This document shows positions 1-39,424 of a DNA stretch of 39,424 nt, piece after piece (the stretch's first letter is position 1; each line of letters starts with the position of its first letter). The notes under the pieces were generated by a model. It did no database searches. It was not told the DNA's origin and saw nothing but the letters and a program-made list of their open reading frames with translations. Made by a program: the position numbers and the translations under genes. Source of the stretch: Escherichia phage ETEP21B; the sequence record OR979722.1. One strand, given 5' to 3'.

Positions 1-145
1 GTGTTACCACTAGATATGGGGCTTAGGGTGACTTAGTGATACTATATGTGGGCCTCTATGTGTCCCTATCTGTAATCACCTAGAGTCACCACCTAGAGTC
101 ACCACCTAGAGTCACCACCTAGAGTCACCACCTAGAGTCACCACC
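1..145. repeat. Left direct terminal repeat (DTR); identical to 39280-39424. True repeat probably extends to about 184 because the right copy is cut by the window end
   Basis: Exact match of window start to window end read by eye; core GTGTCCCTATCTGT resembles the T7 terminal-repeat sequence. Confidence 0.85.
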
Positions 146-184
146 TAGAGTCACCACCTAGATTCACCACCTAGAGTCACCACC
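77..184. repeat. Tandem array of about 8 copies of 13-bp unit CACCTAGAGTCAC (one variant copy CACCTAGATTCAC) at the inner edge of the terminal repeat
   Basis: Head-to-tail perfect copies visible directly in the sequence; same unit repeated at 39356-39424. Confidence 0.9.
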
Positions 185-381
185 TTATGTCAGACCAGTG
201 ACCTCTATCCTTATGTTAACCTTCAGTCGGTGCCTTCAGTTTATCAGTGACCAGTAGGCTTAGTCACAAAGGGATTCACTATCTTACTCTGTTTAGCAGT
301 CTCTGAGTAATGAGAGAGACACAAATAGAATTGACTGAGTGCCTATAGTGCCTTAAAGGTGACTAAGAGTCAATCCCTGAT

Positions 382-404
382 TAATGCGACTCACTAATGG
401 GATA
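382..404 (+). promoter_or_regulatory. Phage RNAP promoter (phiOL-like), TAATGCGACTCACTAATGGGATA
   Basis: Match to the T7-type promoter family found 15 times in the window; same position as phiOL in T7. Confidence 0.7.
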
Positions 405-5749: not shown

Positions 5750-5756
5750 TGTGAAC

Positions 5757-5779
5757 TAATACGACTCACTAATGGGAAC
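5757..5779 (+). promoter_or_regulatory. Phage RNAP promoter (phi1.1A-like), TAATACGACTCACTAATGGGAAC; transcript begins with hairpin GAACCC-TTTG-GGGTTC (5776-5791)
   Basis: Consensus match; perfect 6-bp inverted repeat immediately at +3. Confidence 0.85.
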
Positions 5780-5991: not shown

Positions 5992-6263
5992 TGGGTCGCT
6001 TATACAGTGGTAACTTAATAGCATACAAAGACGCTATCGAACGACTTAAAGAAGACCATGATGTAAGCGTGGTCGAAGAGACATTCCGTTATGAGAACTA
6101 TGCACAACGCCGCTGGGTATCCGGTGAGACTCTCCGCATTGTTCTACGCAATGGCCTCATACTGACATCCAAGTGTTTCGAACAGTCAGACGAAGATGTC
6201 CGGTGCAACGCACAGACCGAGTGGCTCCGCAAGGTACACGCAGACCTGAAGCACTGGAAGTAA
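5991..6263 (+). CDS. 1.2: gp1.2-like protein (T7 gp1.2 inhibits host dGTPase), 90 aa
   Basis: N-terminus MGRLYSGNL and C-terminus ...DLKHWK match T7 gp1.2. Confidence 0.8.
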   Translation: MGRLYSGNLIAYKDAIERLKEDHDVSVVEETFRYENYAQRRWVSGETLRIVLRNGLILTSKCFEQSDEDVRCNAQTEWLRKVHADLKHWK

Positions 6264-6283
6264 TACGACTCACTATTGCGAAA
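6261..6283 (+). promoter_or_regulatory. Phage RNAP promoter (phi1.3-like), TAATACGACTCACTATTGCGAAA; initiating region is GCGA rather than GGGA
   Basis: Perfect -17 to -5 consensus; overlaps the gene 1.2 stop as in T7. Confidence 0.75.
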
Positions 6284-7423: not shown

Positions 7424-7429
7424 GCGTTT

Positions 7430-8233: not shown

Positions 8234-8421
8234 GCAATTTAAACAAAGGGTCACTGGTTAACGGTGACAAGAAGTTCTTCGCAACGGTCGAAGGCCAAGG
8301 CCAATCGTTCGAAGTACCTGTGTTCGCTGAGTCTCTTGAAGAGGCCAACGAGTTAGCCGAGTGGCAATACGTCCCGGCTGGCTTCGCAGTGACACGCATC
8401 CGTCCAGACCGTAAGGTTTAA
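8230..8421 (+). CDS. 2: Host RNA polymerase inhibitor Gp2, 63 aa
   Basis: [59 protein letters not shown] matches T7 Gp2; start at internal ATG with GGGAGAGGA RBS. Confidence 0.9.
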
Positions 8422-8441
8422 TTGGACTCACTAATGGGAGA
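8419..8441 (+). promoter_or_regulatory. Phage RNAP promoter (phi2.5-like), TAATTGGACTCACTAATGGGAGA
   Basis: Consensus match with two substitutions upstream. Confidence 0.75.
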
Positions 8442-9196: not shown

Positions 9197-9642
9197 TGGC
9201 TAAGGGATATGCAGGTCGGGGCACTCGCGTGGGTGCCTTTCGCTCTGGCTTGGAGGATAAGGTAAGTAAGCAACTCGAAGGGAAGAACATCAAGTTCGAT
9301 TATGAGCGTTGGCGAGTACCTTATGTTATTCCTGCAAGCAACCATACCTATTGCCCGGACTTCCTGTTACCTAATGGAATCTTTGTGGAAACCAAAGGTC
9401 TGTGGGACAGTGACGACCGCAAGAAGCACTTGCTGATTCGTGAACAGTATCCTGAACTTGATGTACGCATCGTGTTCTCTTCTAGTCGCTCCAAGCTGTA
9501 CAAAGGGTCTCCGACCAGTTACGGTGAGTGGTGTGAGAAGCATGGCATTCTGTTCGCTGACAAATTAATTCCAGTTGATTGGCTTAAAGAGCCTTCTAAG
9601 GATGTTCCATTCGATAAATTTAAAGAGGTGAAGAAGAAATGA
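9196..9642 (+). CDS. 3: Endonuclease I (Holliday junction resolvase), 148 aa
   Basis: VGAFRSGLEDKVSKQLE, VPYVIPASNHTY.PDFLLPNGIFVETKGLW.SDDRKKHLLIREQ.PEL match T7 gp3. Confidence 0.95.
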   Translation: MAKGYAGRGTRVGAFRSGLEDKVSKQLEGKNIKFDYERWRVPYVIPASNHTYCPDFLLPNGIFVETKGLWDSDDRKKHLLIREQYPELDVRIVFSSSRSKLYKGSPTSYGEWCEKHGILFADKLIPVDWLKEPSKDVPFDKFKEVKKK

Positions 9643-10094
9643 GTAAGGTACAATTCAAACCACGCGCTGTGACAGAAGCAATCTTTGTCCACTGTAGCGC
9701 AACTAAGGCGACCATGAACGTTGGTCTGCGTGAAATCCGTCAGTGGCATAAAGAACAGGGCTGGCTTGATGTAGGCTACCACTTCATTATTCGCCGTGAT
9801 GGTACAATCGAAGAAGGCCGTCCGGTCGATGTCGTTGGGTCTCATGTGAAAGACTGGAACAGTAAGTCAGTCGGTGTGTGTCTCGTTGGTGGTATCGACG
9901 AAAAGGGCAAACACGAAGCTAACTTTACTCCAGCACAGATGCAGTCTCTTAAAGAGAAACTGGCAGACCTGAAAGACCTGTACCCGGATGCTGAAATCAA
10001 AGCGCACCACGATGTCGCACCTAAAGCATGTCCAAGTTTTAACTTGAGTCGCTGGCTGAAGACTGGTGAATTAGTAACAAGTGATTGGGGTTAA
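9639..10094 (+). CDS. 3.5: Lysozyme / N-acetylmuramoyl-L-alanine amidase (also the RNAP inhibitor in T7), 151 aa
   Basis: VQFK.R..T.AIFVHCSATK...NVG.REIRQWHKEQGWLDVGYHFII.RDGT, HEVAPKACPSF match T7 lysozyme. Confidence 0.95.
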   Translation: MSKVQFKPRAVTEAIFVHCSATKATMNVGLREIRQWHKEQGWLDVGYHFIIRRDGTIEEGRPVDVVGSHVKDWNSKSVGVCLVGGIDEKGKHEANFTPAQMQSLKEKLADLKDLYPDAEIKAHHDVAPKACPSFNLSRWLKTGELVTSDWG

Positions 10095-11974: not shown

Positions 11975-12040
11975 CAGTCATTGGGTAGACCAGTGGGAAG
12001 AACTGAATGAGCGCGAACAGGCGCTCGACAGGAAGCAATC

Positions 12041-12063
12041 AATAGAACTCACTAATGGGACAG
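12041..12063 (+). promoter_or_regulatory. Phage RNAP promoter (phi4.3-like), AATAGAACTCACTAATGGGACAG
   Basis: Consensus match downstream of gene 4. Confidence 0.7.
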
Positions 12064-12684: not shown

Positions 12685-12693
12685 GTATGAAAA

Positions 12694-12716
12694 CTATTCA
12701 ACTCACTAATGGGAGA
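12694..12716 (+). promoter_or_regulatory. Phage RNAP promoter (phi4.7-like), CTATTCAACTCACTAATGGGAGA
   Basis: Consensus core and initiation region. Confidence 0.7.
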
Positions 12717-17247: not shown

Positions 17248-17275
17248 CTCTAGGCATTCTTCTCGACAGTGAAAT

Positions 17276-17298
17276 CAATACGACTCACTATTGAGAGG
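17276..17298 (+). promoter_or_regulatory. Phage RNAP promoter (phi6.5-like), CAATACGACTCACTATTGAGAGG
   Basis: Consensus -17 to -1; initiation region GAGA. Confidence 0.75.
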
Positions 17299-18275: not shown

Positions 18276-19877
18276 ATGGCAAGCTCACAGAAACGTGAAG
18301 GCTTCGCGGAGAATGGTGCCAAGGCGGTGTATGACGCATTGAAGAACGACCGGAACTCCTACGAGACCCGTGCGGAAAACTGTGCGAAGTACACCATACC
18401 TTCGTTGTTCCCTAAAGACTCCGACAACGCCTCTACTGACTACACCACTCCGTGGCAAGCAGTTGGCGCTCGTGGCTTGAACAACTTGGCCTCTAAGCTC
18501 ATGCTCGCTCTGTTCCCTATGCAGACGTGGATGAAGCTGACCATCTCTGAGTTCGAAGCGAAACAATTGGTTGCACAGCCAGCCGAACTAGCGAAGGTCG
18601 AAGAAGGTCTCTCAATGGTCGAGCGAATCTTGATGAACTACATCGAGTCCAACTCGTACCGTGTGACACTCTTTGAGACCCTCAAGCAGTTGGTCGTTGC
18701 AGGTAACGCTCTGCTCTACATTCCTGAACCTGAAGGTGCTTACAATCCCATGAAGCTATACCGCCTGTCTTCTTATGTTGTCCAACGAGACGCATTCGGC
18801 ACGGTGCTACAGATTGTAACCTTAGATAAGACTGCCTATGCAGCACTTCCAGAAGACGTGCGAAACGCTATGGACTCCGGTCAGGAACATAAAGGCGACG
18901 AAATGATTGATGTGTACACTCACATTTATCTTGACGAAGAATCAGGAGAATACCTCAAGTACGAAGAGATTGATGGTGTTGAAGTCGATGGTACAGATGC
19001 TTCTTATCCGGTGGACGCTTGTCCTTATATCCCGGTTCGCATGGTACGCATTGATGGAGAATCATATGGTCGTTCTTACTGTGAGGAATACTTAGGTGAC
19101 TTACGGTCCCTTGAGAACCTCCAAGAAGCTATCGTTAAGATGTCAATGATTAGTGCAAAAGTTATCGGCTTGGTTAACCCTGCTGGTATCACACAGGTTC
19201 GTCGTTTGACCAAAGCACAGACAGGTGACTTCGTGTCCGGTCGTCCAGAAGACATCTCGTTCCTTCAGCTTGAAAAGGCCGCAGACTTCTCTGTAGCGAA
19301 AGCTGTGAGTGAACAGATTGAGGGCCGATTGTCTTATGCCTTTATGCTGAACTCTGCTGTGCAACGTACTGGTGAGCGTGTGACTGCCGAAGAGATTCGA
19401 TATGTCGCATCTGAACTCGAAGATACCCTTGGTGGCGTCTATTCGATTCTCTCACAGGAACTTCAGTTGCCAATGGTTCGTGTCCTGCTGAAGCAACTTC
19501 AAGCAACCAATCAGATTCCTGAGTTACCGAAAGAGGCCGTTGAGCCTACTATCAGTACCGGGATGGAAGCATTGGGTCGTGGTCAAGACCTCGATAAGCT
19601 GGAACGTTGTATTGCTGCGTGGTCTGCTCTTGCTCCTATGCAGAATGACCCTGACATCAACATTGCGACCATTAAGTTGCGCATTGCGAATGCTATCGGC
19701 ATCGACACTTCTGGTATCCTTAAGACACCTGAAGAGAAGCAACAGGAGATGGCTGAGGCCGCTCAAGGCACTGCTATGGAGAACGCTGCTGCGTCTGCTG
19801 GTGCTGGTGCTGGTGCTCTGGCTACTGCAAGCCCTGAGAACATGCAAGCTGCGGCTGAACAGGCTGGCATGATTTAA
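18276..19877 (+). CDS. 8: Head-to-tail connector (portal) protein gp8, 533 aa
   Basis: Long collinear identity blocks with T7 gp8 (YTIPSLFPKDSDNASTDYTTPWQAVGARGLNNLASKLMLALFPMQTWM...). Confidence 0.97.
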   Translation: MASSQKREGFAENGAKAVYDALKNDRNSYETRAENCAKYTIPSLFPKDSDNASTDYTTPWQAVGARGLNNLASKLMLALFPMQTWMKLTISEFEAKQLVAQPAELAKVEEGLSMVERILMNYIESNSYRVTLFETLKQLVVAGNALLYIPEPEGAYNPMKLYRLSSYVVQRDAFGTVLQIVTLDKTAYAALPEDVRNAMDSGQEHKGDEMIDVYTHIYLDEESGEYLKYEEIDGVEVDGTDASYPVDACPYIPVRMVRIDGESYGRSYCEEYLGDLRSLENLQEAIVKMSMISAKVIGLVNPAGITQVRRLTKAQTGDFVSGRPEDISFLQLEKAADFSVAKAVSEQIEGRLSYAFMLNSAVQRTGERVTAEEIRYVASELEDTLGGVYSILSQELQLPMVRVLLKQLQATNQIPELPKEAVEPTISTGMEALGRGQDLDKLERCIAAWSALAPMQNDPDINIATIKLRIANAIGIDTSGILKTPEEKQQEMAEAAQGTAMENAAASAGAGAGALATASPENMQAAAEQAGMI

Positions 19878-19897
19878 TACGACTCACTAATGGGAGA
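19875..19897 (+). promoter_or_regulatory. Phage RNAP promoter (phi9-like), TAATACGACTCACTAATGGGAGA; transcript 5' end can form hairpin GGGAG...CTCCC
   Basis: Perfect consensus, overlaps portal stop codon as in T7. Confidence 0.9.
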
Positions 19898-20865: not shown

Positions 20866-20868
20866 AAT

Positions 20869-20891
20869 TAATACGACTCACTATTGGGAGA
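20869..20891 (+). promoter_or_regulatory. Phage RNAP promoter (phi10-like), TAATACGACTCACTATTGGGAGA; transcript 5' hairpin GGGAGAG...TCTCCC
   Basis: Consensus; long AT-rich leader with strong RBS AGAAGGAGA before the capsid gene. Confidence 0.9.
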
Positions 20892-25240: not shown

Positions 25241-25267
25241 ATGAAACACCCCGACTCAATAAGTGAA

Positions 25268-25290
25268 CAATACGACTCACTATTGGGAAG
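25268..25290 (+). promoter_or_regulatory. Phage RNAP promoter (phi13-like), CAATACGACTCACTATTGGGAAG
   Basis: Consensus match immediately upstream of gene 13. Confidence 0.85.
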
Positions 25291-31600: not shown

Positions 31601-32607
31601 CGTTCACTAAGTTCCTCAATGGTACTTCCAACTACATTCTGGACATGGCCCGTCAAGGTGTCATGGGAGATGTGGTAACTCATGCCATTACTGGTAAGGG
31701 TGCCAACAAGTGGATTAAAGGCGACATGCTGAAATCTGCGAGTATCTCTAAGGAACAGTGGGAAGGCATTCAGAACCTAATCCGTGAGAACGTCACTCAA
31801 GGTGCTGATGGCAAATATACCTTCAAGGATAAGCGCAAGCTGGCTAATGACCCGCGAGCTATGGACCTGTGGCGTCTGGCTGATAAGGTAGCTGATGAAA
31901 CAATGCTGAGACCACACAAGGTGTCCTTACAGGATTCCCATGCGTTCGGTGCTGCTGCTAAGTTGGTCCTTCAGTTCAAGTCTTTCGTAATCAAGTCGAT
32001 GAACTCTAAGTTTATCCGCTCCGGTAACGAAGCATTTAAGAACCATAGGGCTATGGACATGGCGCTGACCTACGCAATCTCTGGAGGCATCGCTGGTTCC
32101 TACTATGTGGCACAGGCCCACTTGAAGGCTGCTGGTCTACCTAAAGAGCAACAGAAGGACTACTTGAAGAAAGCCCTTGACCCTAAGATGATTGCCTATG
32201 CTGCTGCGTCCCGAAGTTCACACCTTGGGTCGCCTCTGAGTATCGCAAACTTCGCTATGGGTGCTGCTGGTTATGACCAAGGTCTCATGGTCCGCTCTAC
32301 GATTCTCCCGAAAGGTGAGGACAAGCGGGAACGGAACAAGGCGGTAACTTCTCGTGACATGAGTGACTCCATCATGGGCGCATTAGGTGAACAGATTCCT
32401 GCTCTTGGATTCGCCGGGGCAACCTTTGCTGCTGGTCGAAATGCTTATGGTGTCCTTACAGCTCCTAATAAAGTGACCGAGCGTGAGATGATGACTGGCC
32501 TAATGAACGCTCATCGTGAGATGGTTCCGAATGACCCTATCACTCAACAGATGCTCATTAAGTTCTATGAGGCTAACGGTGTTCACCTGAAGTCTGACAA
32601 GAAGTAA
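28660..32607 (+). CDS. 16: Internal core protein gp16 with N-terminal lytic transglycosylase domain, 1315 aa; GTG start
   Basis: MDKY...GVSY.LLRKV.W.ESRF.PTA.S.TGP.G.MQFTKAT, LAYNQGEGR, ELAARSP.TK.LNGT.NY, NDP.TQQ...K.YEANGV collinear with T7 gp16; AGGAGG 5 nt upstream of GTG. Confidence 0.95.
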   Translation: MDKYNPNEPHEYDALFQQAADTHGVSYGLLRKVGWVESRFKPTAQSPTGPRGVMQFTKATGQAYGLQNDEDFNDPAKSIDAGARYLADLVKKYNGDELKAALAYNQGEGRNGKPQLEAYDSGNFAGIGDEGRNYLRSLLDVAKSPKSGDIESFGGITPKGKGIPFDTAMSGIGKKGKVTTELPESHSMSFQGKEQAAPNQPFGKDYWEEKGTTLDEANERSTFFGFGNATEAELSNSTLGVAFRAGKRDNGFDVVTDVLQPTRFNSHIWSPEELERIRNEVKNPAYMNVVLGGSSDNLDELIKLANENYELDAKAADAGLGAKLSAGIIGAGVDPLTYVPIAGTAAKGFKLVNKALIVGAQAGALNVASEGLRTSVAGGDAHYAEAALAGMLFAGGLTAIADGVAAGLRKSGAEQIENPFAAAQMRFEARETARNTGGHDASRMPPSEDRVFSQHNGVEYSPLETEPGAVVLRDGSIISDTNLANPMTAKEFAEVDPERAAWGLPMRGLSEIGLRTLRSEHAEIRGLAKDLIRSPTGMESGSHGKFGATASDIKERLHSTNQRTYNDLYDAMKEAMADPEWSVGMFKRGSQGARQEIYRRAAIAIERPELQANLTKAERKVMDIMKEHFDLKREMMENPAMFGNKATSIFPNSRHKGTYVPHVYSREAKQLYSQALGGSDGLQEAIAASWMTSYRSRPEVKARVDEHLAETLGIDPKAVTEEMVMKHASDKAYGIAKTDEFNSSSVIDDNIEGLVGIENNSFLEARNLFDSDMPVTLPNGQQFSVNDLRDFDMKHVMPAYDRRVDGDIAIMGGTGKTTAELKDSIMALDKKSEGKGTMKGEVEALKDTVKILTGRARRNQDTMGDTMVRALSDMSFFTKNAYMGLQNLTEISGLLAKGNTRAMLHGIPALRDLAFRNKPVSGKELKELHSMVFGKEFDDLIRPTRQDIIQRLRESTDTPDVAAKVVGTVKHTTQELAARSPFTKFLNGTSNYILDMARQGVMGDVVTHAITGKGANKWIKGDMLKSASISKEQWEGIQNLIRENVTQGADGKYTFKDKRKLANDPRAMDLWRLADKVADETMLRPHKVSLQDSHAFGAAAKLVLQFKSFVIKSMNSKFIRSGNEAFKNHRAMDMALTYAISGGIAGSYYVAQAHLKAAGLPKEQQKDYLKKALDPKMIAYAAASRSSHLGSPLSIANFAMGAAGYDQGLMVRSTILPKGEDKRERNKAVTSRDMSDSIMGALGEQIPALGFAGATFAAGRNAYGVLTAPNKVTEREMMTGLMNAHREMVPNDPITQQMLIKFYEANGVHLKSDKK

Positions 32608-32608
32608 T

Positions 32609-32631
32609 CAATACGACTCACTATTGGGAAG
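32609..32631 (+). promoter_or_regulatory. Phage RNAP promoter (phi17-like), CAATACGACTCACTATTGGGAAG
   Basis: Consensus match directly after gene 16 stop. Confidence 0.85.
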
Positions 32632-32677
32632 GCTCCCACAGCTTCCCTCTATTTACCTAACCGAAAGGAGGCTACAG

Positions 32678-34645
32678 ATGGCTAACAAAATTTCCACTGT
32701 GCGTACTTACCCACTTAATGGTGCCGTGAACTTCACAATCACCTTTGAGTATCTGGCCCGTAAGTTCGTGCAAGTAACCCTAATTGGTAAAGACCGTAAG
32801 GAACTGGTACTTAATCAGGACTATCGCTTTACCTCTAAGACGCAAATCACAACCTCTCGTACTTGGACTGCCGCAGATGGCTACCAGATGATTGAGATTC
32901 GTCGATTCACTTCAGCTACTGACCGTCTGGTTGACTTTGCCGATGGCTCTATCCTTCGTGCGTATGACCTGAACATCTCACAGATTCAGACTCTGCACGT
33001 TGCTGAGGAAGCACGAGACCTCACTGCTGATACTATCGGTGTCAACAACGATGGTCACTTAGATGCCCGTGGTCGTAAGATTGTGAACCTTGCGTTCGCT
33101 ACTAATGACTATGATGCTGTCCCTCTGAAGCAGATTAAAGAGCGTGAGACCTCTGCGTGGAATGCTGTTACTAAGGCAAACGAACATGCTGACCGTTCTA
33201 ATCGAGAGGCTAATCGTTCTCGTGATGAGGCTAACCGTGCTCAACGCGAAGCTGACCGTTCAACTCAACAGGCAGGTATCTCTACGGCACAAGCGGTTGA
33301 GTCCAAGAAGCAAGCTGACCGTTCCAACTCTGAGGCTAACCGAGCTAAAGGATATGCTGATAGTATGACCGCAAGTGTCGCTGAGGCCAAGAAGCAAGCT
33401 GACCGTTCCAACTCTGAGGCCAATCGTGCCCGTGATGAGGCCAACCGTGCTGCCGGAGAAGTGACTAAAGCTGCTGCTGAGGTTGCCAAGGCTGCTGCAC
33501 ATGTTGAGACCGCTAAGGGACATGCTGACCGAGCCAACACTGAGGCAAACCGCTCTAAGAGTGAAGCCGACCGTGCAAAGACCGAGGCCGATAAGTTGGG
33601 GAACATGAATGAATTAGCTGAGGCCATCGACAGGGTTGATGCTCCTGATGTTTACTTCAAGAGGAATGTTGTCGCCGGACACAGATTGGAGACTTCTGGA
33701 GGATCACATCTTCACCCTAATGAGATTAAATTGGTTAACAATAAATCTCCAGACCAGCACTTCATTGTACAGGCGTGGGGAACTGGAGACCCTAATGATA
33801 GGTCGCAGGTGTTTGAGTTAAAGGATAACTTGGGTCCGTACGCATTCTATATCCAGCGCCAGAAGAAGACAGACCAAACTTGGCAAATGAGTGTGAACGG
33901 TACTGTTAGCTGCGTATCCATCGAGGCTGGCAAGGGTTTCATCTCTAAGGACCGTACAGGCTCCATTCAGATGAAGACTTGGGGAGGTAGTTGGGGCCAA
34001 TGGACTTCTAATGCTGTTCCTGACATTCAGCACGATATTGAGGCCCAACATGATGCTGCTTATCTTCTGGAGAGGGCTACCATTTGGGGTAAGGAGCATT
34101 TATACGCAAAACAACTGTACAACAATGGCACTGGCGCAAACTTCTTTATCAGACACTATCTCCGTGGGACTTACTTTGACTTCCGCTCTGATGGTACTCT
34201 TATCAGTTCCACCGGATGGAATATCCCGGCAGATGGTAACCTGTACATCAAGAAATATGGAACGTATATTGACGCATGGGTAAACAAGCGCCTAAGCGAA
34301 CATGCCTACAACAAGAGCGAGACAAACAACCTAGTGAATGGTCGATTGACACAAGCCCAAGCTGATGGGCGATACGTCCGTAAGAATGCGGGGTGGACTG
34401 AAGTGTGGAAAGGAAGCGCTGGCGGTGGTACCTCGGTAGGTCTCTCACAGGATGTTCGTTGGAGAACCATCTGGATTCAAACTCAAGGCAGATGGAACCC
34501 TGTTCAGATTGGTGATAATGGTGCTTACTACATCTCGTCGATGGGCGGTTGGTTGCAGTTTACCATCTCGAATAATGGTAGAACATTCCGTAACGATGTG
34601 GATAGAAGCTCTGTTCCTACGAGAATCTTGGTTCAAAACCAATAA
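32678..34645 (+). CDS. 17: Tail fiber protein gp17, 655 aa: conserved N-terminal tail-attachment domain, repetitive Arg/Ala-rich shaft, distinct C-terminal receptor-binding part
   Basis: N-terminal 150 aa collinear with T7 gp17 (FEYLARKFV.VTLIG.DRK, DRLVDF.DGSILRAYDLN..QIQT.HVAEEARDLT.DTIGVNNDGHLDARGR.IVNLA); C-terminus WKGSAGGG.SV..SQD also T7-like; middle differs. Confidence 0.93.
   Translation: MANKISTVRTYPLNGAVNFTITFEYLARKFVQVTLIGKDRKELVLNQDYRFTSKTQITTSRTWTAADGYQMIEIRRFTSATDRLVDFADGSILRAYDLNISQIQTLHVAEEARDLTADTIGVNNDGHLDARGRKIVNLAFATNDYDAVPLKQIKERETSAWNAVTKANEHADRSNREANRSRDEANRAQREADRSTQQAGISTAQAVESKKQADRSNSEANRAKGYADSMTASVAEAKKQADRSNSEANRARDEANRAAGEVTKAAAEVAKAAAHVETAKGHADRANTEANRSKSEADRAKTEADKLGNMNELAEAIDRVDAPDVYFKRNVVAGHRLETSGGSHLHPNEIKLVNNKSPDQHFIVQAWGTGDPNDRSQVFELKDNLGPYAFYIQRQKKTDQTWQMSVNGTVSCVSIEAGKGFISKDRTGSIQMKTWGGSWGQWTSNAVPDIQHDIEAQHDAAYLLERATIWGKEHLYAKQLYNNGTGANFFIRHYLRGTYFDFRSDGTLISSTGWNIPADGNLYIKKYGTYIDAWVNKRLSEHAYNKSETNNLVNGRLTQAQADGRYVRKNAGWTEVWKGSAGGGTSVGLSQDVRWRTIWIQTQGRWNPVQIGDNGAYYISSMGGWLQFTISNNGRTFRNDVDRSSVPTRILVQNQ
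33303..33420 (+). repeat. Two perfect 34-bp direct repeats (CCAAGAAGCAAGCTGACCGTTCCAACTCTGAGGC) 84 bp apart inside gene 17, within a wider degenerate repeat region (about 33180-33600)
   Basis: Exact nucleotide repeat read from sequence; encodes repeated KKQADRSNSEAN blocks. Confidence 0.85.
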
Positions 34646-34689
34646 TGGAATACAACGAGGCCACGGATGGCTGACACTAGGAGGACATA

Positions 34690-34896
34690 ATGTTGTCATT
34701 GGATTTTAACAACGAGGTAGTGAAGGCTGCTCCGATTGTAGGGACAGGGGTTGCCGATGGTGCTGCCAGACTGTTCTTCGGCCTGTCACTTAACGAGTGG
34801 TTTTATGTAGCCGCAATTGCCTACACAGTGGCTCAAATTGGTGCCAAGGTAGTCGATGTGGTTATCAAATGGAAGAAGGAGGGTAAAGATGTCTAA
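34690..34896 (+). CDS. 17.5: Class II holin gp17.5, 68 aa
   Basis: MLSLDFNNE..KAAPIVGTGVAD..ARLFFGLSLNEWFYVAAIAYTV.QIGAKVVD nearly identical in pattern to T7 holin. Confidence 0.95.
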   Translation: MLSLDFNNEVVKAAPIVGTGVADGAARLFFGLSLNEWFYVAAIAYTVAQIGAKVVDVVIKWKKEGKDV

Positions 34897-35158
34897 CGAT
34901 AAATCTTTGATTCAATTCCTTGAGATGCTGGACACTGAGATGGCTCAACGTATGCTGAAAGACCTTCAGGATGACGAGAAGCGAACGCCTCAACTGTACA
35001 ACGCAATCGGGAAGCTGTTAGAACGCCACAAGTTCCAAGTCTCCAAGTTACAGCCAGACCGTAACATCCTTGGTGGACTTGCTGATGGACTTCAGGAGTA
35101 TCAGAACCTCGTAGGTGACGATGGTCTAACTGAAGATGAGAAGTACACGCTGAACTGA
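34889..35158 (+). CDS. 18: Terminase small subunit gp18, 89 aa
   Basis: Position between holin and spanins, size identical to T7 gp18, AGGAGGG RBS. Confidence 0.85.
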   Translation: MSNDKSLIQFLEMLDTEMAQRMLKDLQDDEKRTPQLYNAIGKLLERHKFQVSKLQPDRNILGGLADGLQEYQNLVGDDGLTEDEKYTLN

Positions 35159-35171
35159 TGGAATAACTCAA

Positions 35172-35191
35172 GGCCACTAGATGTAGTGGTC
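35172..35191 (+). promoter_or_regulatory. Hairpin GGCCACTA-GATG-TAGTGGTC in the gene 18 / 18.5 intergenic region (R18.5-like RNase III site or attenuator)
   Basis: 8-bp stem with one G-U pair; no following T-run, so probably not a terminator; T7 has R18.5 here. Confidence 0.4.
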
Positions 35192-35256
35192 TTTATGATA
35201 TTTCAACACAACTCACGGTGACGCTACGTGAAATCTGAAAATACGGGAGGGTAGTT

Positions 35257-35697
35257 ATGCTCAAGAATTTAAAGAGCTACGCCATAATTGCTGCGTTTGC
35301 CTTGGGTATTACCCTTGCGTATAACCACGGATATGACAAAGCTAACACTAAATGGGAACAGGAGGTGCACAATGAGTACGTTAAGAAAGTTAAGGCGACT
35401 GAGGATAAACAGGCTGCTATCAACGAAGTCTCACGACAATACCAAGAAGACCTTGCGGCGTTGGAAGGCAGCACTGATAGGGTCATTAATGATTTGCGTA
35501 ACGATGGTAAGCGGCTGCGTGTCAAGCTGTCAAACACCTCACGAGAACTCCAAGCTAACGGTGGATGCCTCGCTGATGGTCGAGCCGAACTTGACGAAGA
35601 GTTTAGTAAGCGTCTTATCGGAGTAACTCAAAGAGGGGATGCGTGGATTAGAGCGCTCCAAGGTACAATAACTGAAATGCAACGTAAGGAGAAATAA
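35257..35697 (+). CDS. 18.5: Inner-membrane spanin (Rz-like, gp18.5), 146 aa
   Basis: N-terminal transmembrane segment, coiled-coil body; T7 gp18.5 position and size. Confidence 0.88.
   Translation: MLKNLKSYAIIAAFALGITLAYNHGYDKANTKWEQEVHNEYVKKVKATEDKQAAINEVSRQYQEDLAALEGSTDRVINDLRNDGKRLRVKLSNTSRELQANGGCLADGRAELDEEFSKRLIGVTQRGDAWIRALQGTITEMQRKEK
35372..35626 (+). CDS. 18.7: Outer-membrane lipoprotein spanin (Rz1-like, gp18.7), 84 aa, fully embedded in gene 18.5 in the +1 frame
   Basis: MSTLRKLR...KKTLRRWKAALIGSLMICVTMVSGC...SLMVEPNLT resembles T7 gp18.7; signal peptide plus Cys lipobox; GGAGGTG RBS. Confidence 0.85.
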   Translation: MSTLRKLRRLRINRLLSTKSHDNTKKTLRRWKAALIGSLMICVTMVSGCVSSCQTPHENSKLTVDASLMVEPNLTKSLVSVLSE

Positions 35698-35698
35698 C

Positions 35699-36256
35699 AT
35701 GGCTACTGTAAACTCAAGAACCCGTACCATCTGGACTATCAATGGTCGCTCACCGGACAGCCGGGATATGTACGACCGAAACAATGTGGGCCTTCGTGTT
35801 GGGCGTATCGACATCCCAGCTTCAGAAATGGTCAAGGTAGATGGCTATGACAAGGTTGAATATGTTGTTCAACTGAGTGACGGCACAACCGAGCAACATG
35901 CTACCTTTGAGACCCTGATGTCCACTTGGGGTGGCTCCGTCGAGTCTAAACCGGGTAGTGGGTTCATGACTGTATTTCTGGATGAGCAAAGCTCTGAGCG
36001 TCTCGGTATGGTTCGAATCGACGTATACAAAGAGTGGACTGGTGCTGACCCTGAACCGGAAGGCGGTATGGATTCGCTAGTTAGTGCAACGCTTTCTGCG
36101 TCTGATAGTGCATTTGGTACACAGTTCGTGGACAGCGAAGGAAAGAGCGCTTCCGTTATGTTCCAGCCTAGTAACATCGACGGGGCTGTATCTAAGACAG
36201 ACACCATCAAGGCTCTGGAGAAGCGCATCGCTGCCTTAGAGAAACCTGCCGAGTAA
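35699..36256 (+). CDS. Hypothetical protein, 185 aa, acidic, no recognisable motif; extra gene between spanins and terminase
   Basis: Clean ORF with AAGGAG 8 nt upstream, start overlapping the 18.5 stop (TAACATG); I recall no gene at this position in T7 or T3. Confidence 0.7.
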   Translation: MATVNSRTRTIWTINGRSPDSRDMYDRNNVGLRVGRIDIPASEMVKVDGYDKVEYVVQLSDGTTEQHATFETLMSTWGGSVESKPGSGFMTVFLDEQSSERLGMVRIDVYKEWTGADPEPEGGMDSLVSATLSASDSAFGTQFVDSEGKSASVMFQPSNIDGAVSKTDTIKALEKRIAALEKPAE

Positions 36257-36271
36257 CAATAGGAGGCCACA

Positions 36272-38032
36272 ATGTCACAATCCCAAGAAGCTAAGAACGC
36301 GCTAATCATTGCGCAACTTAAGGGTGACTTCGTGGCCTTCCTGTTCGTCTTATGGAAGGCTCTGAACTTACCTAAACCAACCAAGTGTCAGATTGATATG
36401 GCACGAACACTCGCTAATGGAGACCACAAGAAGTTTATCCTTCAGGCGTTCCGTGGTATCGGCAAGTCCTTTATCACCTGTGCGTTCGTTGTGTGGGTAT
36501 TATGGCGTGACCCTCAACTTAAGGTGCTCATTGTGTCTGCCTCTAAGGAACGTGCGGATGCTAACTCCATCTTCATCAAGAACATCATCGACCTCTTACC
36601 GTTCCTCTCTGAGTTGAAACCTCGACCGGGACAGCGAGACTCCGTGATTAGCTTTGATGTTGGCTTGGCTAAACCCGACCACTCACCTTCTGTGAAGTCT
36701 GTGGGTATCACTGGTCAGTTGACTGGTAGCCGTGCTGACATCATTATTGCAGATGACGTTGAGGTTCCCGGTAATAGCTCTACGAGTTCTGCCCGTGAGA
36801 AGCTCTGGACGTTGGTAACTGAGTTTGCTGCATTACTTAAGCCGCTGCCTACCTCTCGTGTTATCTACCTTGGGACACCTCAAACCGAGATGACTCTCTA
36901 CAAGGAACTCGAAGATAACAAAGGGTACAGCACCGTAATCTGGCCTGCACAGTATCCACGCAATGATGCTGAGGCTCTCTACTATGGGGACCGCTTGGCT
37001 CCTATGCTGAAGGCTGAGTACGATGAAGGCTTTGAGTTACTCCGTGGTCAACCTACTGACCCTGTTCGATTCGATATGGATGACCTCCGTGAACGTGAAC
37101 TCGAATATGGTAAAGCTGGTTACACTCTTCAGTTCATGCTTAACCCTAACCTTAGTGATGCCGAGAAGTACCCACTACGACTCCGTGACGCTATCGTGTG
37201 CGCTGTGGACCCTGAACGTGCCCCATTGTCTTACCAGTGGTTGCCGAACCGTCAGAACCGCAATGAGGAACTCCCTAACGTTGGTCTGAAGGGTGATGAC
37301 ATTCACAGCTTCCATGTGTGTTCCTCTAAGACCGCTGAGTACCAGCAAAAGATTCTCGTCATTGACCCATCGGGTCGTGGTAAGGATGAAACAGGTTACG
37401 CAGTCCTCTACACCCTTAACGGCTACATCTACTTGATGGAAGTCGGTGGGTTCCGTGGTGGCTACGATGACCCTACCTTAGAGAAGCTCGCTAAGAAGGC
37501 CAAGCAGTGGAAGGTACAGACGGTCGTACACGAGAGTAACTTCGGTGATGGTATGTTCGGTAAGGTATTCTCTCCGGTTCTCCTGAAGCACCACAAGTGT
37601 GCCTTAGAAGAGATTCGTGCTCGTGGCATGAAGGAGATGCGTATCTGCGATACTATCGAACCGTTGATGGGTGCACACCGCCTTATCATCCGTGACGAAG
37701 TAATCCGTGAGGACTACCAGACCGCTCGTGACCTCGATGGGAAACATGATGTTCGCTACAGTGCGTTCTATCAGATGACCCGTATGACTCGCGAGAAGGG
37801 CGCTGTGGCACACGATGACAGACTTGATGCTATCGCATTGGGTATCGAGTTCCTTCGTGAAGGGATGCAGGTGGACTCTAAGGTGGGCGAAGAAGCTATG
37901 ACCCTTGAGTTCCTTGAGCACCACATGGAGAAACCTATCATCGGTGGTGACATGGCTCGTGAGTTAGTGTCTGGCGGCGTGGACATCTACTACGAGGATG
38001 ATGGTGATGGAGAGTGCTTCATTGAGTGGTAA
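36272..38032 (+). CDS. 19: Terminase large subunit gp19 (ATPase/nuclease), 586 aa
   Basis: Collinear with T7 gp19 (same 586 aa; [91 protein letters not shown]-terminal FIEW). Confidence 0.98.
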
Positions 38033-38055: not shown

Positions 38056-38505
38056 ATGAGAGTGGCAATTGACCCTATCAGTGGTTGCCACAACTTCCTT
38101 GGGTGTAAGACTTCGGGTGGCTACGGTAGAATCCGTGTAGGTGGTGTCCATTGGATGGCCCACAGATACGCTCTATCAGTTCACCTGAAGCGTCCACTAG
38201 AGGAAGGCTGTGTGGTAATGCACTTATGTGATAACCCTGCCTGTGTTAACCCTGAGCATCTCAGAGAGGGAACTCAGAAGGAGAACATGCAGGACTGTAA
38301 GGACAAGGGAAGGATGCACAAGGCTACAGGCCCTAGAGCACCTCGTCGTCCGTACATCAATAAAATCAACCAGCGATACAATGAGAGACTTAAGGCTGTC
38401 CTTGAGGCCGATGGGTCTGACTTGCAGGTCGCTAAGAAGCTGGGCCTGAACCTACAGTGGGTCAAGAAGGCTCGTAAAGGTAAACTAGTTATGCAAGAAG
38501 TGTGA
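38056..38505 (+). CDS. HNH endonuclease with C-terminal helix-turn-helix-like region, 149 aa
   Basis: Motif GYGRIRVGGVHWMAHRYA...HLCDNPACVNPEHL..GTQKEN; AAGGAGGT RBS; immediately downstream of terminase. Confidence 0.8.
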   Translation: MRVAIDPISGCHNFLGCKTSGGYGRIRVGGVHWMAHRYALSVHLKRPLEEGCVVMHLCDNPACVNPEHLREGTQKENMQDCKDKGRMHKATGPRAPRRPYINKINQRYNERLKAVLEADGSDLQVAKKLGLNLQWVKKARKGKLVMQEV

Positions 38506-38571
38506 ATAGTTAAGCACATCATGAGGCCCTTCCAGTGAACTATAAAAACCTAATGAAATCAAGGGTGTACC

Positions 38572-38594
38572 TAATACGACTCACTATTGGGAAG
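38572..38594 (+). promoter_or_regulatory. Phage RNAP promoter (phiOR-like), TAATACGACTCACTATTGGGAAG
   Basis: Consensus match near the right end, as phiOR in T7. Confidence 0.85.
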
Positions 38595-39279: not shown

Positions 39280-39424
39280 GTGTTACCACTAGATATGGGG
39301 CTTAGGGTGACTTAGTGATACTATATGTGGGCCTCTATGTGTCCCTATCTGTAATCACCTAGAGTCACCACCTAGAGTCACCACCTAGAGTCACCACCTA
39401 GAGTCACCACCTAGAGTCACCACC
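39280..39424. repeat. Right direct terminal repeat (truncated by window end), includes at least 5 copies of the 13-bp tandem unit from 39356
   Basis: Exact identity to 1-145. Confidence 0.85.

What the first reader, a model, noticed from the sequence alone, without database searches (positions are those of the whole stretch)
35257..35697. Embedded two-component spanin pair
The outer-membrane lipoprotein spanin gene (35372-35626) lies entirely inside the inner-membrane spanin gene in the +1 frame, with its own GGAGGTG RBS and a signal peptide/lipobox (MICVTMVSGC). This is expected for T7-like phages but confirms a complete holin-amidase-spanin lysis system split across the genome.
Basis: partly seen in the sequence, partly recalled or inferred. 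Interest (0 to 1): 0.25.

Follow-up and report, generated by a model that had tools for sequence, protein, structure and literature searches.

The report
Embedded T7-type spanin gene pair

Summary
The window is a complete T7-like (Berlinvirus) phage genome, about 92% identical to known phages.

- **i-spanin:** ORF 35257-35697 (146 aa) is an Rz-like i-spanin (PHROG 1327, E 1e-60; Pfam Phage_lysis).
- **o-spanin:** ORF 35372-35626 (84 aa) lies wholly inside it in the +1 frame. GGAGGTG sits 4 nt upstream of its ATG. It matches Pfam O_Spanin_T7 (E 3e-24).
- **Lipoprotein signal:** it has a hydrophobic core, a VSGC lipobox (Cys49), Val at +2, and a 36-aa mature part.

ORF length alone is weak evidence (P about 0.01-0.05). 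Stronger evidence comes from relatives:
- All 30 relatives examined, down to 30% i-spanin identity, keep the open frame, the lipobox Cys and a VDASLMVEPN motif.
- 1164 phage records match the embedded frame by tblastn.
- i-spanin wobble positions are constrained where the mature o-spanin is encoded.

The holin (34690-34896) and amidase (9639-10094) are present, so the split lysis system is complete.

The close relative BA14 is already listed in SpaninDB with the same geometry. Two points remain open, both minor. The o-spanin start codon is not proven, though it does not affect the mature product. A private Tyr-to-Cys change adds a second cysteine.

Verdict: already known, low interest.

The parts
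35243..35249 (+). Shine-Dalgarno (GGGAGGG) of the i-spanin gene, 7 nt before ATG 35257
   Evidence: Read directly in the sequence. The same GGAGG-gtagtt-ATG arrangement is listed for BA14 gp18.5 in SpaninDB.
35257..35697 (+). i-spanin gene (gp18.5 / Rz-like), 146 aa
   Evidence: ORF. Matches PHROG 1327 'Rz-like spanin' at E 1.3e-60 and Pfam PF03245 Phage_lysis at 32.3 bits against a cutoff of 25.4. It is 94.5% identical to the vB_EcoP_S523 protein and 54% to T7 gp18.5.
35269..35325 (+). N-terminal transmembrane segment of the i-spanin (about residues 5-23, LKSYAIIAAFALGITLAYN), preceded by K3 and K6
   Evidence: This is the only 17-residue window with mean Kyte-Doolittle hydropathy above 1.6. 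The AF2 model places a helix at residues 3-23, at low confidence.
35566..35568 (+). Single periplasmic cysteine of the i-spanin (C104), in the linker between the two helical segments
   Evidence: A Cys at or very near this position (NGGC/DGQC/NGRC) is found in all 26 sequences from phages of enterobacteria and relatives (Escherichia, Yersinia, Salmonella, Klebsiella, Pectobacterium, Pantoea, Providencia) in the alignment; the two Pseudomonas phages lack it.
35361..35367 (+). [quoted passage not shown]
   Evidence: A GGAG-type SD plus ATG/GTG/TTG at, or one codon from, the homologous position is present in 25 of 28 distinct relatives.
35372..35626 (+). o-spanin gene (gp18.7 / Rz1-like), 84 aa precursor, +1 frame, fully embedded (0.26 L to 0.84 L of the i-spanin gene)
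   Evidence: Matches Pfam PF17531 O_Spanin_T7 at E 3.2e-24 (residues 25-83) and PHROG 4306 at E 1.8e-37. BA14 has the same geometry in SpaninDB: offset 115, 84 aa.
35465..35518 (+). Signal-peptide hydrophobic core (KAALIGSLMICVTM) and lipobox VSGC (35507-35518); the acylated Cys49 codon is 35516-35518
   Evidence: Hydropathy and lipobox regex. The Cys is invariant in all 30 relatives.
35516..35623 (+). Mature o-spanin, 36 aa (CVSSCQTPHENSKLTVDASLMVEPNLTKSLVSVLSE). Val at +2 implies outer-membrane sorting. A second Cys (C53, codon 35528-35530) is private to this phage.
   Evidence: The i-spanin wobble positions over this DNA are constrained. No IMG/VR contig carries the Cys version.
34690..34896 (+). 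Holin (gp17.5 type), 68 aa
   Evidence: Pfam PF10746 Phage_holin_2_2 at E 3e-31 and PHROG 920 holin. Syntenic with the annotated holins of T7, BA14 and CarlSpitteler.
9639..10094 (+). Endolysin: N-acetylmuramoyl-L-alanine amidase (gp3.5 type), 151 aa, 25 kb upstream of the holin
   Evidence: Pfam PF01510 Amidase_2 at E 3.6e-18. It follows endonuclease I (PF05367), as in T7.
35159..35205 (+). Conserved two-tier RNA hairpin between gene 18 and the i-spanin gene (expression context; at the position of the T7 RNase III site R18.5)
   Evidence: In 11 Studiervirinae, 10 of 17 pairs keep pairing through changes on both sides. That R18.5 is a strong RNase III site in T7 comes from bioRxiv 10.1101/106799. 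Cleavage here is inferred, not shown.
32606..32629 (+). Nearest upstream phage-RNA-polymerase promoter copy (AATCAATACGACTCACTATTGGGA), the likely source of the late transcript carrying the holin, gene 18 and the spanins
   Evidence: Belongs to a 12-copy direct-repeat family with a T7-promoter-like consensus. No copy lies between 32629 and 38569. Promoter function is inferred from the consensus.

Best explanation
This is a two-component spanin of the embedded architecture, orthologous to T7 gp18.5/gp18.7 and BA14 gp18.5/18.7.

**Expression.** Both proteins are translated from the same late mRNA, each from its own Shine-Dalgarno site.

**i-spanin.** The 146-aa protein inserts into the inner membrane through an N-terminal transmembrane helix (N-in, C-out). 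It extends a mostly helical periplasmic domain: helix, Cys-containing linker, helix.

**o-spanin.** The 84-aa precursor is read in the +1 frame. It is exported by Sec, lipidated on Cys49 of the VSGC lipobox and cleaved by signal peptidase II. [quoted passage not shown]

**Action.** The C-terminal parts of the two subunits bind, forming a complex that spans the periplasm through the peptidoglycan mesh. The gp17.5 holin permeabilises the inner membrane and the gp3.5 amidase degrades the murein. The freed complexes then disrupt the outer membrane, by inner-outer membrane fusion in the current model, and release the progeny.

**Shown here:** the gene geometry, the family membership, the sorting signals, and conservation and dual-coding constraint.

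**Inferred from lambda and T7 work:** topology, lipidation, complex formation and the fusion step.
For: - **Geometry and signals:**
- **Family membership:** PF17531 at 85.1 bits (cutoff 25), PF03245 at 32.3 bits (cutoff 25.4), PHROG 1327 at E 1e-60 and PHROG 4306 at E 2e-37.
- **Synteny:** holin, small terminase, i/o-spanin and large terminase lie in the same order as in annotated T7, BA14, CarlSpitteler, fPS-59, JeanTinguely, BIS33 and EcoDS1, each with an annotated 18.7/o-spanin in the same position.
- **Conservation of the embedded frame:** all 30 relatives, at 98% down to 30% i-spanin identity, keep an open +1 frame of 83-122 codons (the one locus cut by a contig end shows 77) with a lipobox Cys. 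The +2 frame has 7-25 stops.
- **Dual coding:** over the DNA encoding the o-spanin hydrophobic core and mature part, i-spanin third-position entropy is 0.76 against 1.48 outside the overlap in distant relatives (Mann-Whitney p 4e-12), and 0.09 against 0.32 in close ones (p 3e-4). In the 11 comparisons below 70% identity, the mature o-spanin is more conserved than the i-frame reading of the same DNA; the two closest relatives differ only marginally the other way.
- **Breadth:** tblastn finds the embedded product in 1164 phage records.
- **Start site:** the SD plus start at 35361-35374 is conserved in 25 of 28 relatives.
- **i-spanin architecture:** the AF2 secondary structure gives a TMD helix 3-23, helices 29-82 and 114-145, and a linker 83-113 carrying C104 (low confidence). 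It agrees with the SpaninDB Jpred and coiled-coil data for the 93%-identical BA14 protein: 65% helix, coiled coil 43-82.
- **Literature:** lambda and T7 are the experimentally tested embedded +1 spanin systems (PMC6139136). The C-terminal 10 residues of T7 gp18.7 bind the C-terminal 50 residues of gp18.5 (PMC3276506). The spanin model is described in PMC6139136.
- **Partner genes:** holin and amidase are present.
Against: Nothing contradicts the assignment. The weak points are these:
- ORF length alone is not significant beyond about P 0.01-0.05.
- With the ATG 35372 start, the signal peptide is 48 aa with a 31-aa, strongly basic n-region (11 K/R). That is far longer than a canonical lipoprotein signal. 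The Pfam model starts only at residue 25, and distant relatives align only from about residue 17-30.
- The AF2 model of the i-spanin is low confidence (pLDDT 49.7).
- NCBIfam has no model hit for either protein.
- No experiment on this phage exists. Lipidation, topology, complex formation and lytic function are all inferred.
Confidence: 0.94

Rival explanations
1. The o-spanin is real but is translated from a different start codon than ATG 35372. One candidate is TTG 35453, giving a 57-aa precursor with a canonical 22-aa lipoprotein signal peptide (LRRWKAALIGSLMICVTMVSG|C). The other is ATG 35333, giving 97 aa as annotated in CarlSpitteler. The mature 36-aa lipopeptide would be identical in every case.
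For: - TTG 35453 would give a textbook signal peptide, and the gene would then start at 0.44 L of the i-spanin gene. About 70% of embedded o-spanins start at 0.4-0.5 L (PMC6139136).
- SpaninDB lists the o-spanin of the close relative 285P as 57 aa, Berlin as 67 aa and BA14 as 84 aa, so curators disagreed.
- CarlSpitteler annotates a 294-nt gene, equivalent to ATG 35333.
- The N-terminal extension is not constrained in the o-frame among distant relatives: i-pos3 entropy is 1.38 against 1.48 (p 0.11).
- The Pfam model starts at residue 25.
Against: - TTG 35453 has no recognisable SD (upstream CCAAGAAGACC) and is lost in fPS-59 and Bubbas.
- ATG 35333 has no SD (CCACGGAT).
- ATG 35372 has a perfect GGAGG at optimal spacing, and the SD plus start is kept, as ATG, GTG or TTG, in 25 of 28 relatives across several genera.
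- In close relatives, i-spanin third positions over the extension are as constrained as over the mature part: 4 of 31 variable against 27 of 61 outside the overlap (p 0.0025).
Confidence: 0.2
2. The embedded +1 ORF is a chance open frame in a gene rich in GAR/AAR/CAR codons, and only the outer gene is functional.
For: Open +1 stretches of 84-126 codons occur by chance in other, longer genes of this genome. Synonymous recoding of the i-spanin gives >=84 open codons in 5% of trials.
Against: - Pfam and PHROG hits lie far above threshold.
- A lipoprotein signal is present, a feature almost absent from other open stretches.
- The frame, Cys and VDASLMVEPN motif are kept in relatives down to 30% i-spanin identity.
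- There is a dual-coding constraint on i-spanin wobble positions.
- T7 18.5/18.7 has been tested experimentally (PMC6139136).
Confidence: 0.01
3. The outer gene encodes a murein endopeptidase ('endopeptidase Rz'), as many database records still call it, acting enzymatically on peptidoglycan rather than as a membrane-bridging spanin.
For: Many phage records annotate the homolog as 'endopeptidase' or 'endopeptidase Rz'. PMC3276506 repeats the older proposal.
Against: - There is no peptidase domain. The only family hits are Rz-like spanin families.
- The predicted architecture is a TMD plus long helices, not an enzyme fold.
- Current literature assigns Rz the i-spanin role (PMC6139136).
- The amidase gp3.5 already supplies the murein hydrolase.
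Confidence: 0.02

Closest known systems
Escherichia phage BA14 gp18.5/gp18.7 (Berlinvirus; SpaninDB entry 'BA14, Emb, +1')
   Same: Identical geometry: o-spanin offset 115 nt, 84-aa precursor, 36-aa periplasmic part, 0.26 L to 0.83 L. It has the same SD/ATG, about 93% i-spanin identity and 92% mature o-spanin identity. The flanking genes are the same, including the 185-aa unknown ORF downstream.
   Different: The window's i-spanin is one residue shorter (146 against 147 aa). The mature o-spanin has Cys instead of Tyr at position 5 (VSSCQT against VSNYQP), plus a few other substitutions.
Phage T7 gp18.5/gp18.7 (Pfam PF17531 O_Spanin_T7; experimentally tested embedded spanin)
   Same: Same architecture, frame and SD-ATG context (GGAGGTACACAATG). 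Same MSTLR... start, lipobox ISGC/VSGC, SLMVEPNLT motif and a single i-spanin periplasmic Cys. The synteny holin - gene 18 - R18.5-like hairpin - 18.5/18.7 is shared.
   Different: Only 54% i-spanin and 47% mature o-spanin identity. In T7, gene 19 follows directly; here a 185-aa ORF is inserted. T7 gp18.7 has no second Cys.
Phage lambda Rz/Rz1 (prototype embedded two-component spanin)
   Same: An o-spanin lipoprotein gene lies wholly inside the i-spanin gene in the +1 frame. The i-spanin has a TMD, two helical segments and a linker. Periplasmic cysteines are available for homotypic disulfides. The i-spanin matches Pfam PF03245, the Rz family.
   Different: - There is no detectable sequence similarity between the o-spanins; they belong to different Pfam families.
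- Lambda's lysis genes form one cassette (S-R-Rz/Rz1), while here the amidase is 25 kb away and gene 18 separates the holin from the spanins.
- Rz1 is Pro-rich (10 of 40 residues), whereas this mature o-spanin has 2 Pro in 36.
- Lambda Rz has two periplasmic Cys, here there is one.
Phage T1 gp11 (unimolecular spanin)
   Same: Same role in lysis (outer-membrane disruption) and use of an outer-membrane lipoprotein signal (PMC6139136).
   Different: T1 gp11 is a single polypeptide with an N-terminal lipobox and a C-terminal TMD. Here there are two separate subunits from overlapping genes.

Membership tests
Two-component spanin, embedded architecture (Rz/Rz1 type; Summer 2007, Kongari 2018) | o-spanin gene lies entirely within the i-spanin gene in an alternative reading frame | tested here: met
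   35372-35626 lies inside 35257-35697 at an offset of 115 nt, which is +1.
Two-component spanin, embedded architecture (Rz/Rz1 type; Summer 2007, Kongari 2018) | i-spanin has a single N-terminal transmembrane domain (type II, N-in/C-out) | tested here: met
   There is one hydrophobic segment, residues about 5-23, with K3 and K6 on the N side, and an AF2 helix at 3-23. The orientation itself is inferred from the positive-inside rule.
Two-component spanin, embedded architecture (Rz/Rz1 type; Summer 2007, Kongari 2018) | i-spanin periplasmic domain is largely alpha-helical or coiled-coil, with a linker | tested here: inconclusive
   DSSP on the AF2 model gives helices 29-82 and 114-145 with a linker at 83-113, but mean pLDDT is only 49.7. 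SpaninDB Jpred and Pepcoil for the 93%-identical BA14 protein give 65% helix and one coiled coil at 43-82. No coiled-coil predictor was run on this sequence.
Two-component spanin, embedded architecture (Rz/Rz1 type; Summer 2007, Kongari 2018) | o-spanin has a lipoprotein signal peptide with a lipobox and an invariant Cys | tested here: met
   The hydrophobic core ALIGSLMICVTMV has mean KD 2.4, and the strict lipobox VSGC places Cys at residue 49. The Cys is invariant in 30 relatives. SignalP and LipoP were not available.
Two-component spanin, embedded architecture (Rz/Rz1 type; Summer 2007, Kongari 2018) | Outer-membrane sorting signal (no Asp at +2 of the mature lipoprotein) | tested here: met
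   Residue +2 is Val and +3 is Ser. The rule itself is established knowledge of Lol sorting in E. coli.
Two-component spanin, embedded architecture (Rz/Rz1 type; Summer 2007, Kongari 2018) | At least one periplasmic Cys for homotypic intermolecular disulfide (507 of 528 systems) | tested here: met
   The i-spanin has C104 and the mature o-spanin has C53. The requirement is described in PMC6139136. Disulfide formation itself was not tested.
Two-component spanin, embedded architecture (Rz/Rz1 type; Summer 2007, Kongari 2018) | i- and o-spanin bind through their C-terminal regions and are required for outer-membrane disruption | not testable with these tools
   Known only for the homologs: T7 two-hybrid data (PMC3276506) and lambda/T7 complementation (PMC6139136).
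Pfam PF17531 O_Spanin_T7 / PF03245 Phage_lysis | Whole-protein score above the curated gathering threshold | tested here: met
   PF17531 scores 85.1 bits against 25.0, and PF03245 scores 32.3 bits against 25.4.
T7-type (Studiervirinae) lysis system | gp3.5-type amidase, gp17.5-type holin and gp18.5/18.7 spanins in T7 gene order, on one strand | tested here: met
   The amidase at 9639-10094 follows endonuclease I. The holin at 34690-34896, gene 18 and the spanins follow in order. The order is the same as in T7 and BA14. The genome is a Berlinvirus relative.

The most novel reading that the evidence does not exclude
The conserved, strongly basic 31-residue extension in front of the canonical o-spanin signal peptide may be a functional element rather than a by-product of where a good RBS happens to sit inside the i-spanin gene. 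Its start is fixed by an SD plus ATG kept in 25 of 28 Studiervirinae. It could, for example, delay or tune Sec export or the stoichiometry of the o-spanin relative to the i-spanin.

Separately, the private Tyr53-to-Cys change creates a second lipobox-like VSSC and a membrane-proximal Cys. This could alter the acylation site or add an o-spanin homodimer disulfide in this phage.
Probability: 0.12. Interest if true: 0.3.

Novelty: already known. Interest (0 to 1): 0.07.

Why it matters
It matters little beyond correct annotation. Embedded o-spanin genes are routinely missed by gene callers. PMC6139136 reports 196 of 528 missing. Here, most of the 1164 phage records with the embedded frame annotate only the outer gene, and the 5.8-billion-protein collection returned only 6 o-spanin homologs against 182 for the i-spanin. 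Confirming the pair shows that this phage has a complete three-step lysis system (holin, amidase, spanin), which is useful for annotation or for phage engineering. It raises no new biological question.

Tried and rejected
- **AF2 on the i-spanin.** Run as a monomer with a 30-sequence alignment, it gave pLDDT 49.7. Only the secondary-structure pattern is usable, so no fold search was made on it.
- **NCBIfam.** No model hit for either spanin.
- **Rfam at E<=1 over 34500-36500.** Nothing found.
- **Protein-collection search with the o-spanin.** It returned only 6 clusters because embedded genes are rarely called. tblastn against phage genomes was used instead.
- **T3 promoter consensus with up to 3 mismatches.** No match. 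The promoters were found as a repeat family instead.
- **Sigma-70 and terminator scan.** Counts were no higher than in shuffled sequence.
- **Search for other phages with the Tyr-to-Cys o-spanin variant in IMG/VR.** None found.
- **Per-substitution classification in close relatives.** It was meant to decide whether the N-terminal extension is under selection in the o-frame. The result was mixed: 10 changes i-nonsynonymous/o-synonymous, 6 the reverse and 9 nonsynonymous in both. It does not settle the start codon.
- **Antisense ORFs overlapping the locus** (35277-35537, 35539-35835, 34893-35177, 35869-36384). They have no PHROG hit and are taken as chance, since all genes of this phage type lie on one strand.
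- **The downstream 185-aa ORF.** It got a usable AF2 model, but the PDB and BFVD fold searches matched nothing named.
Full report
**What the window is.** The 39,424-bp window is a complete T7-like podophage genome. It has 145-bp direct terminal repeats (1-145 = 39280-39424) and a family of at least 12 T7-type promoter copies, TAATACGACTCACTA[AT]TGGGA. It is about 92% identical over 25 kb to Escherichia phages PhiV-1, CarlSpitteler and 285P, all genus Berlinvirus, Studiervirinae.

**The observation.**
- The sequence shows an ATG at 35257 preceded by GGGAGGG, and an ORF running to TAA at 35695-35697 (146 aa).
- In the +1 frame there is an ATG at 35372 preceded by GGAGGTG (35361-35367, 4-nt spacer), and an ORF running to TAA at 35624-35626 (84 aa).
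- The +1 frame is open for 112 codons, while the +2 frame has 23 stops.
- The embedded product reads MSTLRKLRRLRINRLLSTKSHDNTKKTLRRWKAALIGSLMICVTMVSG|CVSSCQTPHENSKLTVDASLMVEPNLTKSLVSVLSE.
- It has a strongly hydrophobic core (mean Kyte-Doolittle 2.4), a strict lipobox VSGC with Cys49, Val at +2, and a 36-residue mature part.

**Is it more than chance?**
- ORF length alone is not compelling. Recoding the i-spanin synonymously with this genome's codon usage gives >=84 open +1 codons in 5% of trials and >=112 in 1.2%. Longer genes of the window have chance +1 stretches of up to 126 codons.
- The 84-aa product scores 85.1 bits on Pfam O_Spanin_T7 (cutoff 25) and E 1.8e-37 on PHROG 4306. The outer product scores E 1.3e-60 on PHROG 1327 (Rz-like spanin) and passes Pfam Phage_lysis.
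- Of 418 open stretches of >=40 aa in six frames, only this locus and one antisense stretch pass a simple lipoprotein-signal test.
- In 30 related loci, at 98% down to 30% i-spanin identity, from Escherichia, Yersinia, Salmonella, Klebsiella, Pectobacterium, Pantoea, Providencia and Pseudomonas phages, the +1 frame is always open. It always carries a lipobox Cys and ends in a (V/I)(D/E)(A/S)SLMV(E/K/T/P)(P/S)(N/T) motif.
- tblastn with the embedded product finds 1164 phage records, against 1213 for the i-spanin.

**Dual coding.** In this arrangement the i-spanin third codon position is the o-spanin second position.
- Over the DNA encoding the o-spanin hydrophobic core and mature part, i-spanin third-position entropy is halved relative to the non-overlapped parts of the same gene. 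In distant relatives it is 0.76 against 1.48 (Mann-Whitney p 4e-12). In close relatives it is 0.09 against 0.32 (p 3e-4).
- The most variable position there becomes i-position 1, which is the o-spanin wobble.
- In the 11 comparisons below 70% identity, the mature o-spanin is more conserved than the i-frame reading of the same DNA, for example 47% against 39% versus T7. In the two closest relatives the difference is marginal and goes the other way.

**The i-spanin.**
- It has one hydrophobic segment at residues about 5-23, with Lys3 and Lys6 before it.
- An AF2 model is low confidence (pLDDT 49.7). It gives a helix at 3-23, helices at 29-82 and 114-145, and a non-helical linker at 83-113 that carries the single periplasmic Cys104.
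- This matches SpaninDB's predictions for the 93%-identical BA14 protein: 65% helix, coiled coil 43-82.
- A Cys at or very near the position of Cys104 is found in all 26 sequences from phages of enterobacteria and relatives in the alignment.

**Rest of the lysis system and context.**
- The holin is at 34690-34896 (PF10746, E 3e-31).
- Gene 18 (small terminase) follows at 34889-35158.
- The amidase endolysin is at 9639-10094 (PF01510, E 3.6e-18), directly after endonuclease I as in T7.
- The order holin - gene 18 - 18.5/18.7 - large terminase matches the annotated T7, BA14, CarlSpitteler, JeanTinguely, fPS-59, BIS33 and EcoDS1 records. Each of these annotates an embedded o-spanin (18.7, Rz1) at the equivalent place.
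- No promoter copy lies between 32606-32629, just before the tail-fibre gene, and 38569. The spanins are therefore presumably part of the late transcript from that promoter.

**Mechanism.** The best-supported explanation is the standard one (PMC6139136; PMC3276506).
1. The i-spanin sits in the inner membrane.
2. The o-spanin is lipidated at Cys49, cleaved and sorted to the outer membrane.
3. The two bind through C-terminal regions and span the periplasm.
4. After holin triggering and murein degradation by the amidase, they disrupt the outer membrane, probably by membrane fusion.

The geometry, the signals, family membership and selective constraint are shown here. Topology, lipidation, complex formation and fusion are inferred from lambda and T7.

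**The one open point: the o-spanin start codon.**
- With ATG 35372, the signal peptide is 48 aa with a 31-aa n-region carrying 11 Lys/Arg, and the gene begins at 0.26 L. Most embedded o-spanins begin at 0.4-0.5 L.
- TTG 35453 would give a canonical 22-aa signal peptide. SpaninDB in fact lists the o-spanin of 285P at 57 aa, Berlin at 67 aa and BA14 at 84 aa. CarlSpitteler is annotated from the equivalent of ATG 35333.
- In favour of 35372: a perfect GGAGG at optimal spacing, kept with an ATG, GTG or TTG at or one codon from the same position in 25 of 28 relatives. TTG 35453 and ATG 35333 have no SD, and the TTG is lost in fPS-59 and Bubbas.
- Close relatives show constraint on i-spanin wobble positions across the extension (4 of 31 variable against 27 of 61, p 0.0025). 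Distant ones do not. A per-substitution tally is mixed.
- I put about 0.75-0.8 on ATG 35372. Whichever start is used, the mature lipopeptide is the same.

**A private substitution.** A single A-to-G change at 35529 is synonymous in the i-spanin and turns Tyr53 of the o-spanin into Cys. None of 27 other distinct sequences has it, and no IMG/VR contig does either. It adds a second periplasmic Cys four residues from the acylated Cys and creates a second lipobox-like VSSC. Its significance is unknown and probably nil.

**Comparison and novelty.**
- This is the Berlinvirus ortholog of T7 gp18.5/gp18.7.
- The BA14 pair, with identical geometry (offset 115 nt, 84 aa, 36-aa periplasmic part), is already catalogued in SpaninDB.
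- T7's pair is one of the two experimentally tested embedded systems.
- It works like lambda Rz/Rz1. It shares the i-spanin Pfam family with lambda, but its o-spanin belongs to a different family.
- All testable membership criteria are met, apart from the coiled-coil character, which rests on a low-confidence model and on predictions for a close relative.
- The finding is already known and its interest is low.

**Surroundings, noted in passing.**
- The 98-nt spacer before the i-spanin gene holds a two-tier hairpin (35159-35205). It is conserved with compensatory changes in 10 of 17 pairs across 11 Studiervirinae. It lies at the position of the strong T7 RNase III site R18.5 (10.1101/106799).
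- Directly after the spanins lies a 185-aa ORF (35699-36256) that T7 lacks. It has no family, PDB or named structural match. It has a confident beta-sandwich N-terminal domain and a C-terminal helix.
- The same slot holds a homing endonuclease in fPS-59 and a small ORF in EcoDS1.
- An HNH endonuclease gene follows the large terminase.

Noticed in passing
window 35159-35205 (+): A conserved two-tier RNA hairpin lies in the spacer between gene 18 (stop at 35158) and the i-spanin ATG. In 11 Studiervirinae, 10 of 17 pairs keep pairing through changes on both sides. It sits where T7 has its strong RNase III site R18.5. There is no Rfam family for it. For the single sequence the folding z-score is only -1.6.
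   Followed up: partly
window 35699-36256 (+): A 185-aa ORF of unknown function (phrog_20446) is wedged between the spanins and the large terminase. T7 lacks it, while Berlinvirus relatives have it. It has no Pfam, NCBIfam or PDB-sequence hit. The AF2 model (pLDDT 77) shows a beta-sandwich at residues 1-120 and a C-terminal helix at 158-181. Fold searches match only uncharacterised phage proteins. Relatives of 250-300 aa carry an extra middle domain. The same slot holds an HNH homing endonuclease in fPS-59 and a small ORF in EcoDS1, so this junction looks like an insertion hotspot.
   Followed up: partly
window 35528-35530 (+): There is a private Tyr-to-Cys substitution at residue 53 of the o-spanin (mature position 5), synonymous in the i-spanin frame. 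It creates a second lipobox-like VSSC and a second periplasmic Cys. It is absent from the 27 other distinct sequences examined and from IMG/VR.
   Followed up: partly
window 38056-38505 (+): A 149-aa ORF after the large terminase gene carries an HNH_3 endonuclease domain (E 1e-9), so it is a likely homing endonuclease.
   Followed up: no
window 1-192 and 39280-39424: The genome has 145-bp direct terminal repeats (1-145 = 39280-39424). A 13-nt tandem repeat, CACCTAGAGTCAC, forms an array of about 9 units at 77-192, partly inside the left terminal repeat, and about 5 units at 39356-39419 inside the right one.
   Followed up: no
window 33170-33600 (+), inside the tail-fibre gene 32624-34645: Periodic 21-nt and 105-nt direct repeats encode reiterated ADRSNxEANRA-type heptad-like units in the middle of a 673-aa tail fibre.
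   Followed up: no
window 379-402, 5754-5777, 6258-6281, 8416-8439, 12037-12060, 12691-12714, 17273-17296, 19872-19895, 20866-20889, 25265-25288, 32606-32629, 38569-38592: Twelve copies of a T7-like phage promoter consensus, TAATACGACTCACTA[AT]TGGGA, were found, with further weaker copies near 7429, 7538 and 10091. The T3 consensus gave no match with up to 3 mismatches.
   Followed up: no
public databases: The embedded o-spanin is badly under-annotated. The protein collection returned only 6 homologs, against 182 for the i-spanin. In most of the 1164 phage records where tblastn finds it, the only feature under the match is the i-spanin. Annotated start codons also differ among close relatives (84, 97, 57 and 67 aa).
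   Followed up: partly
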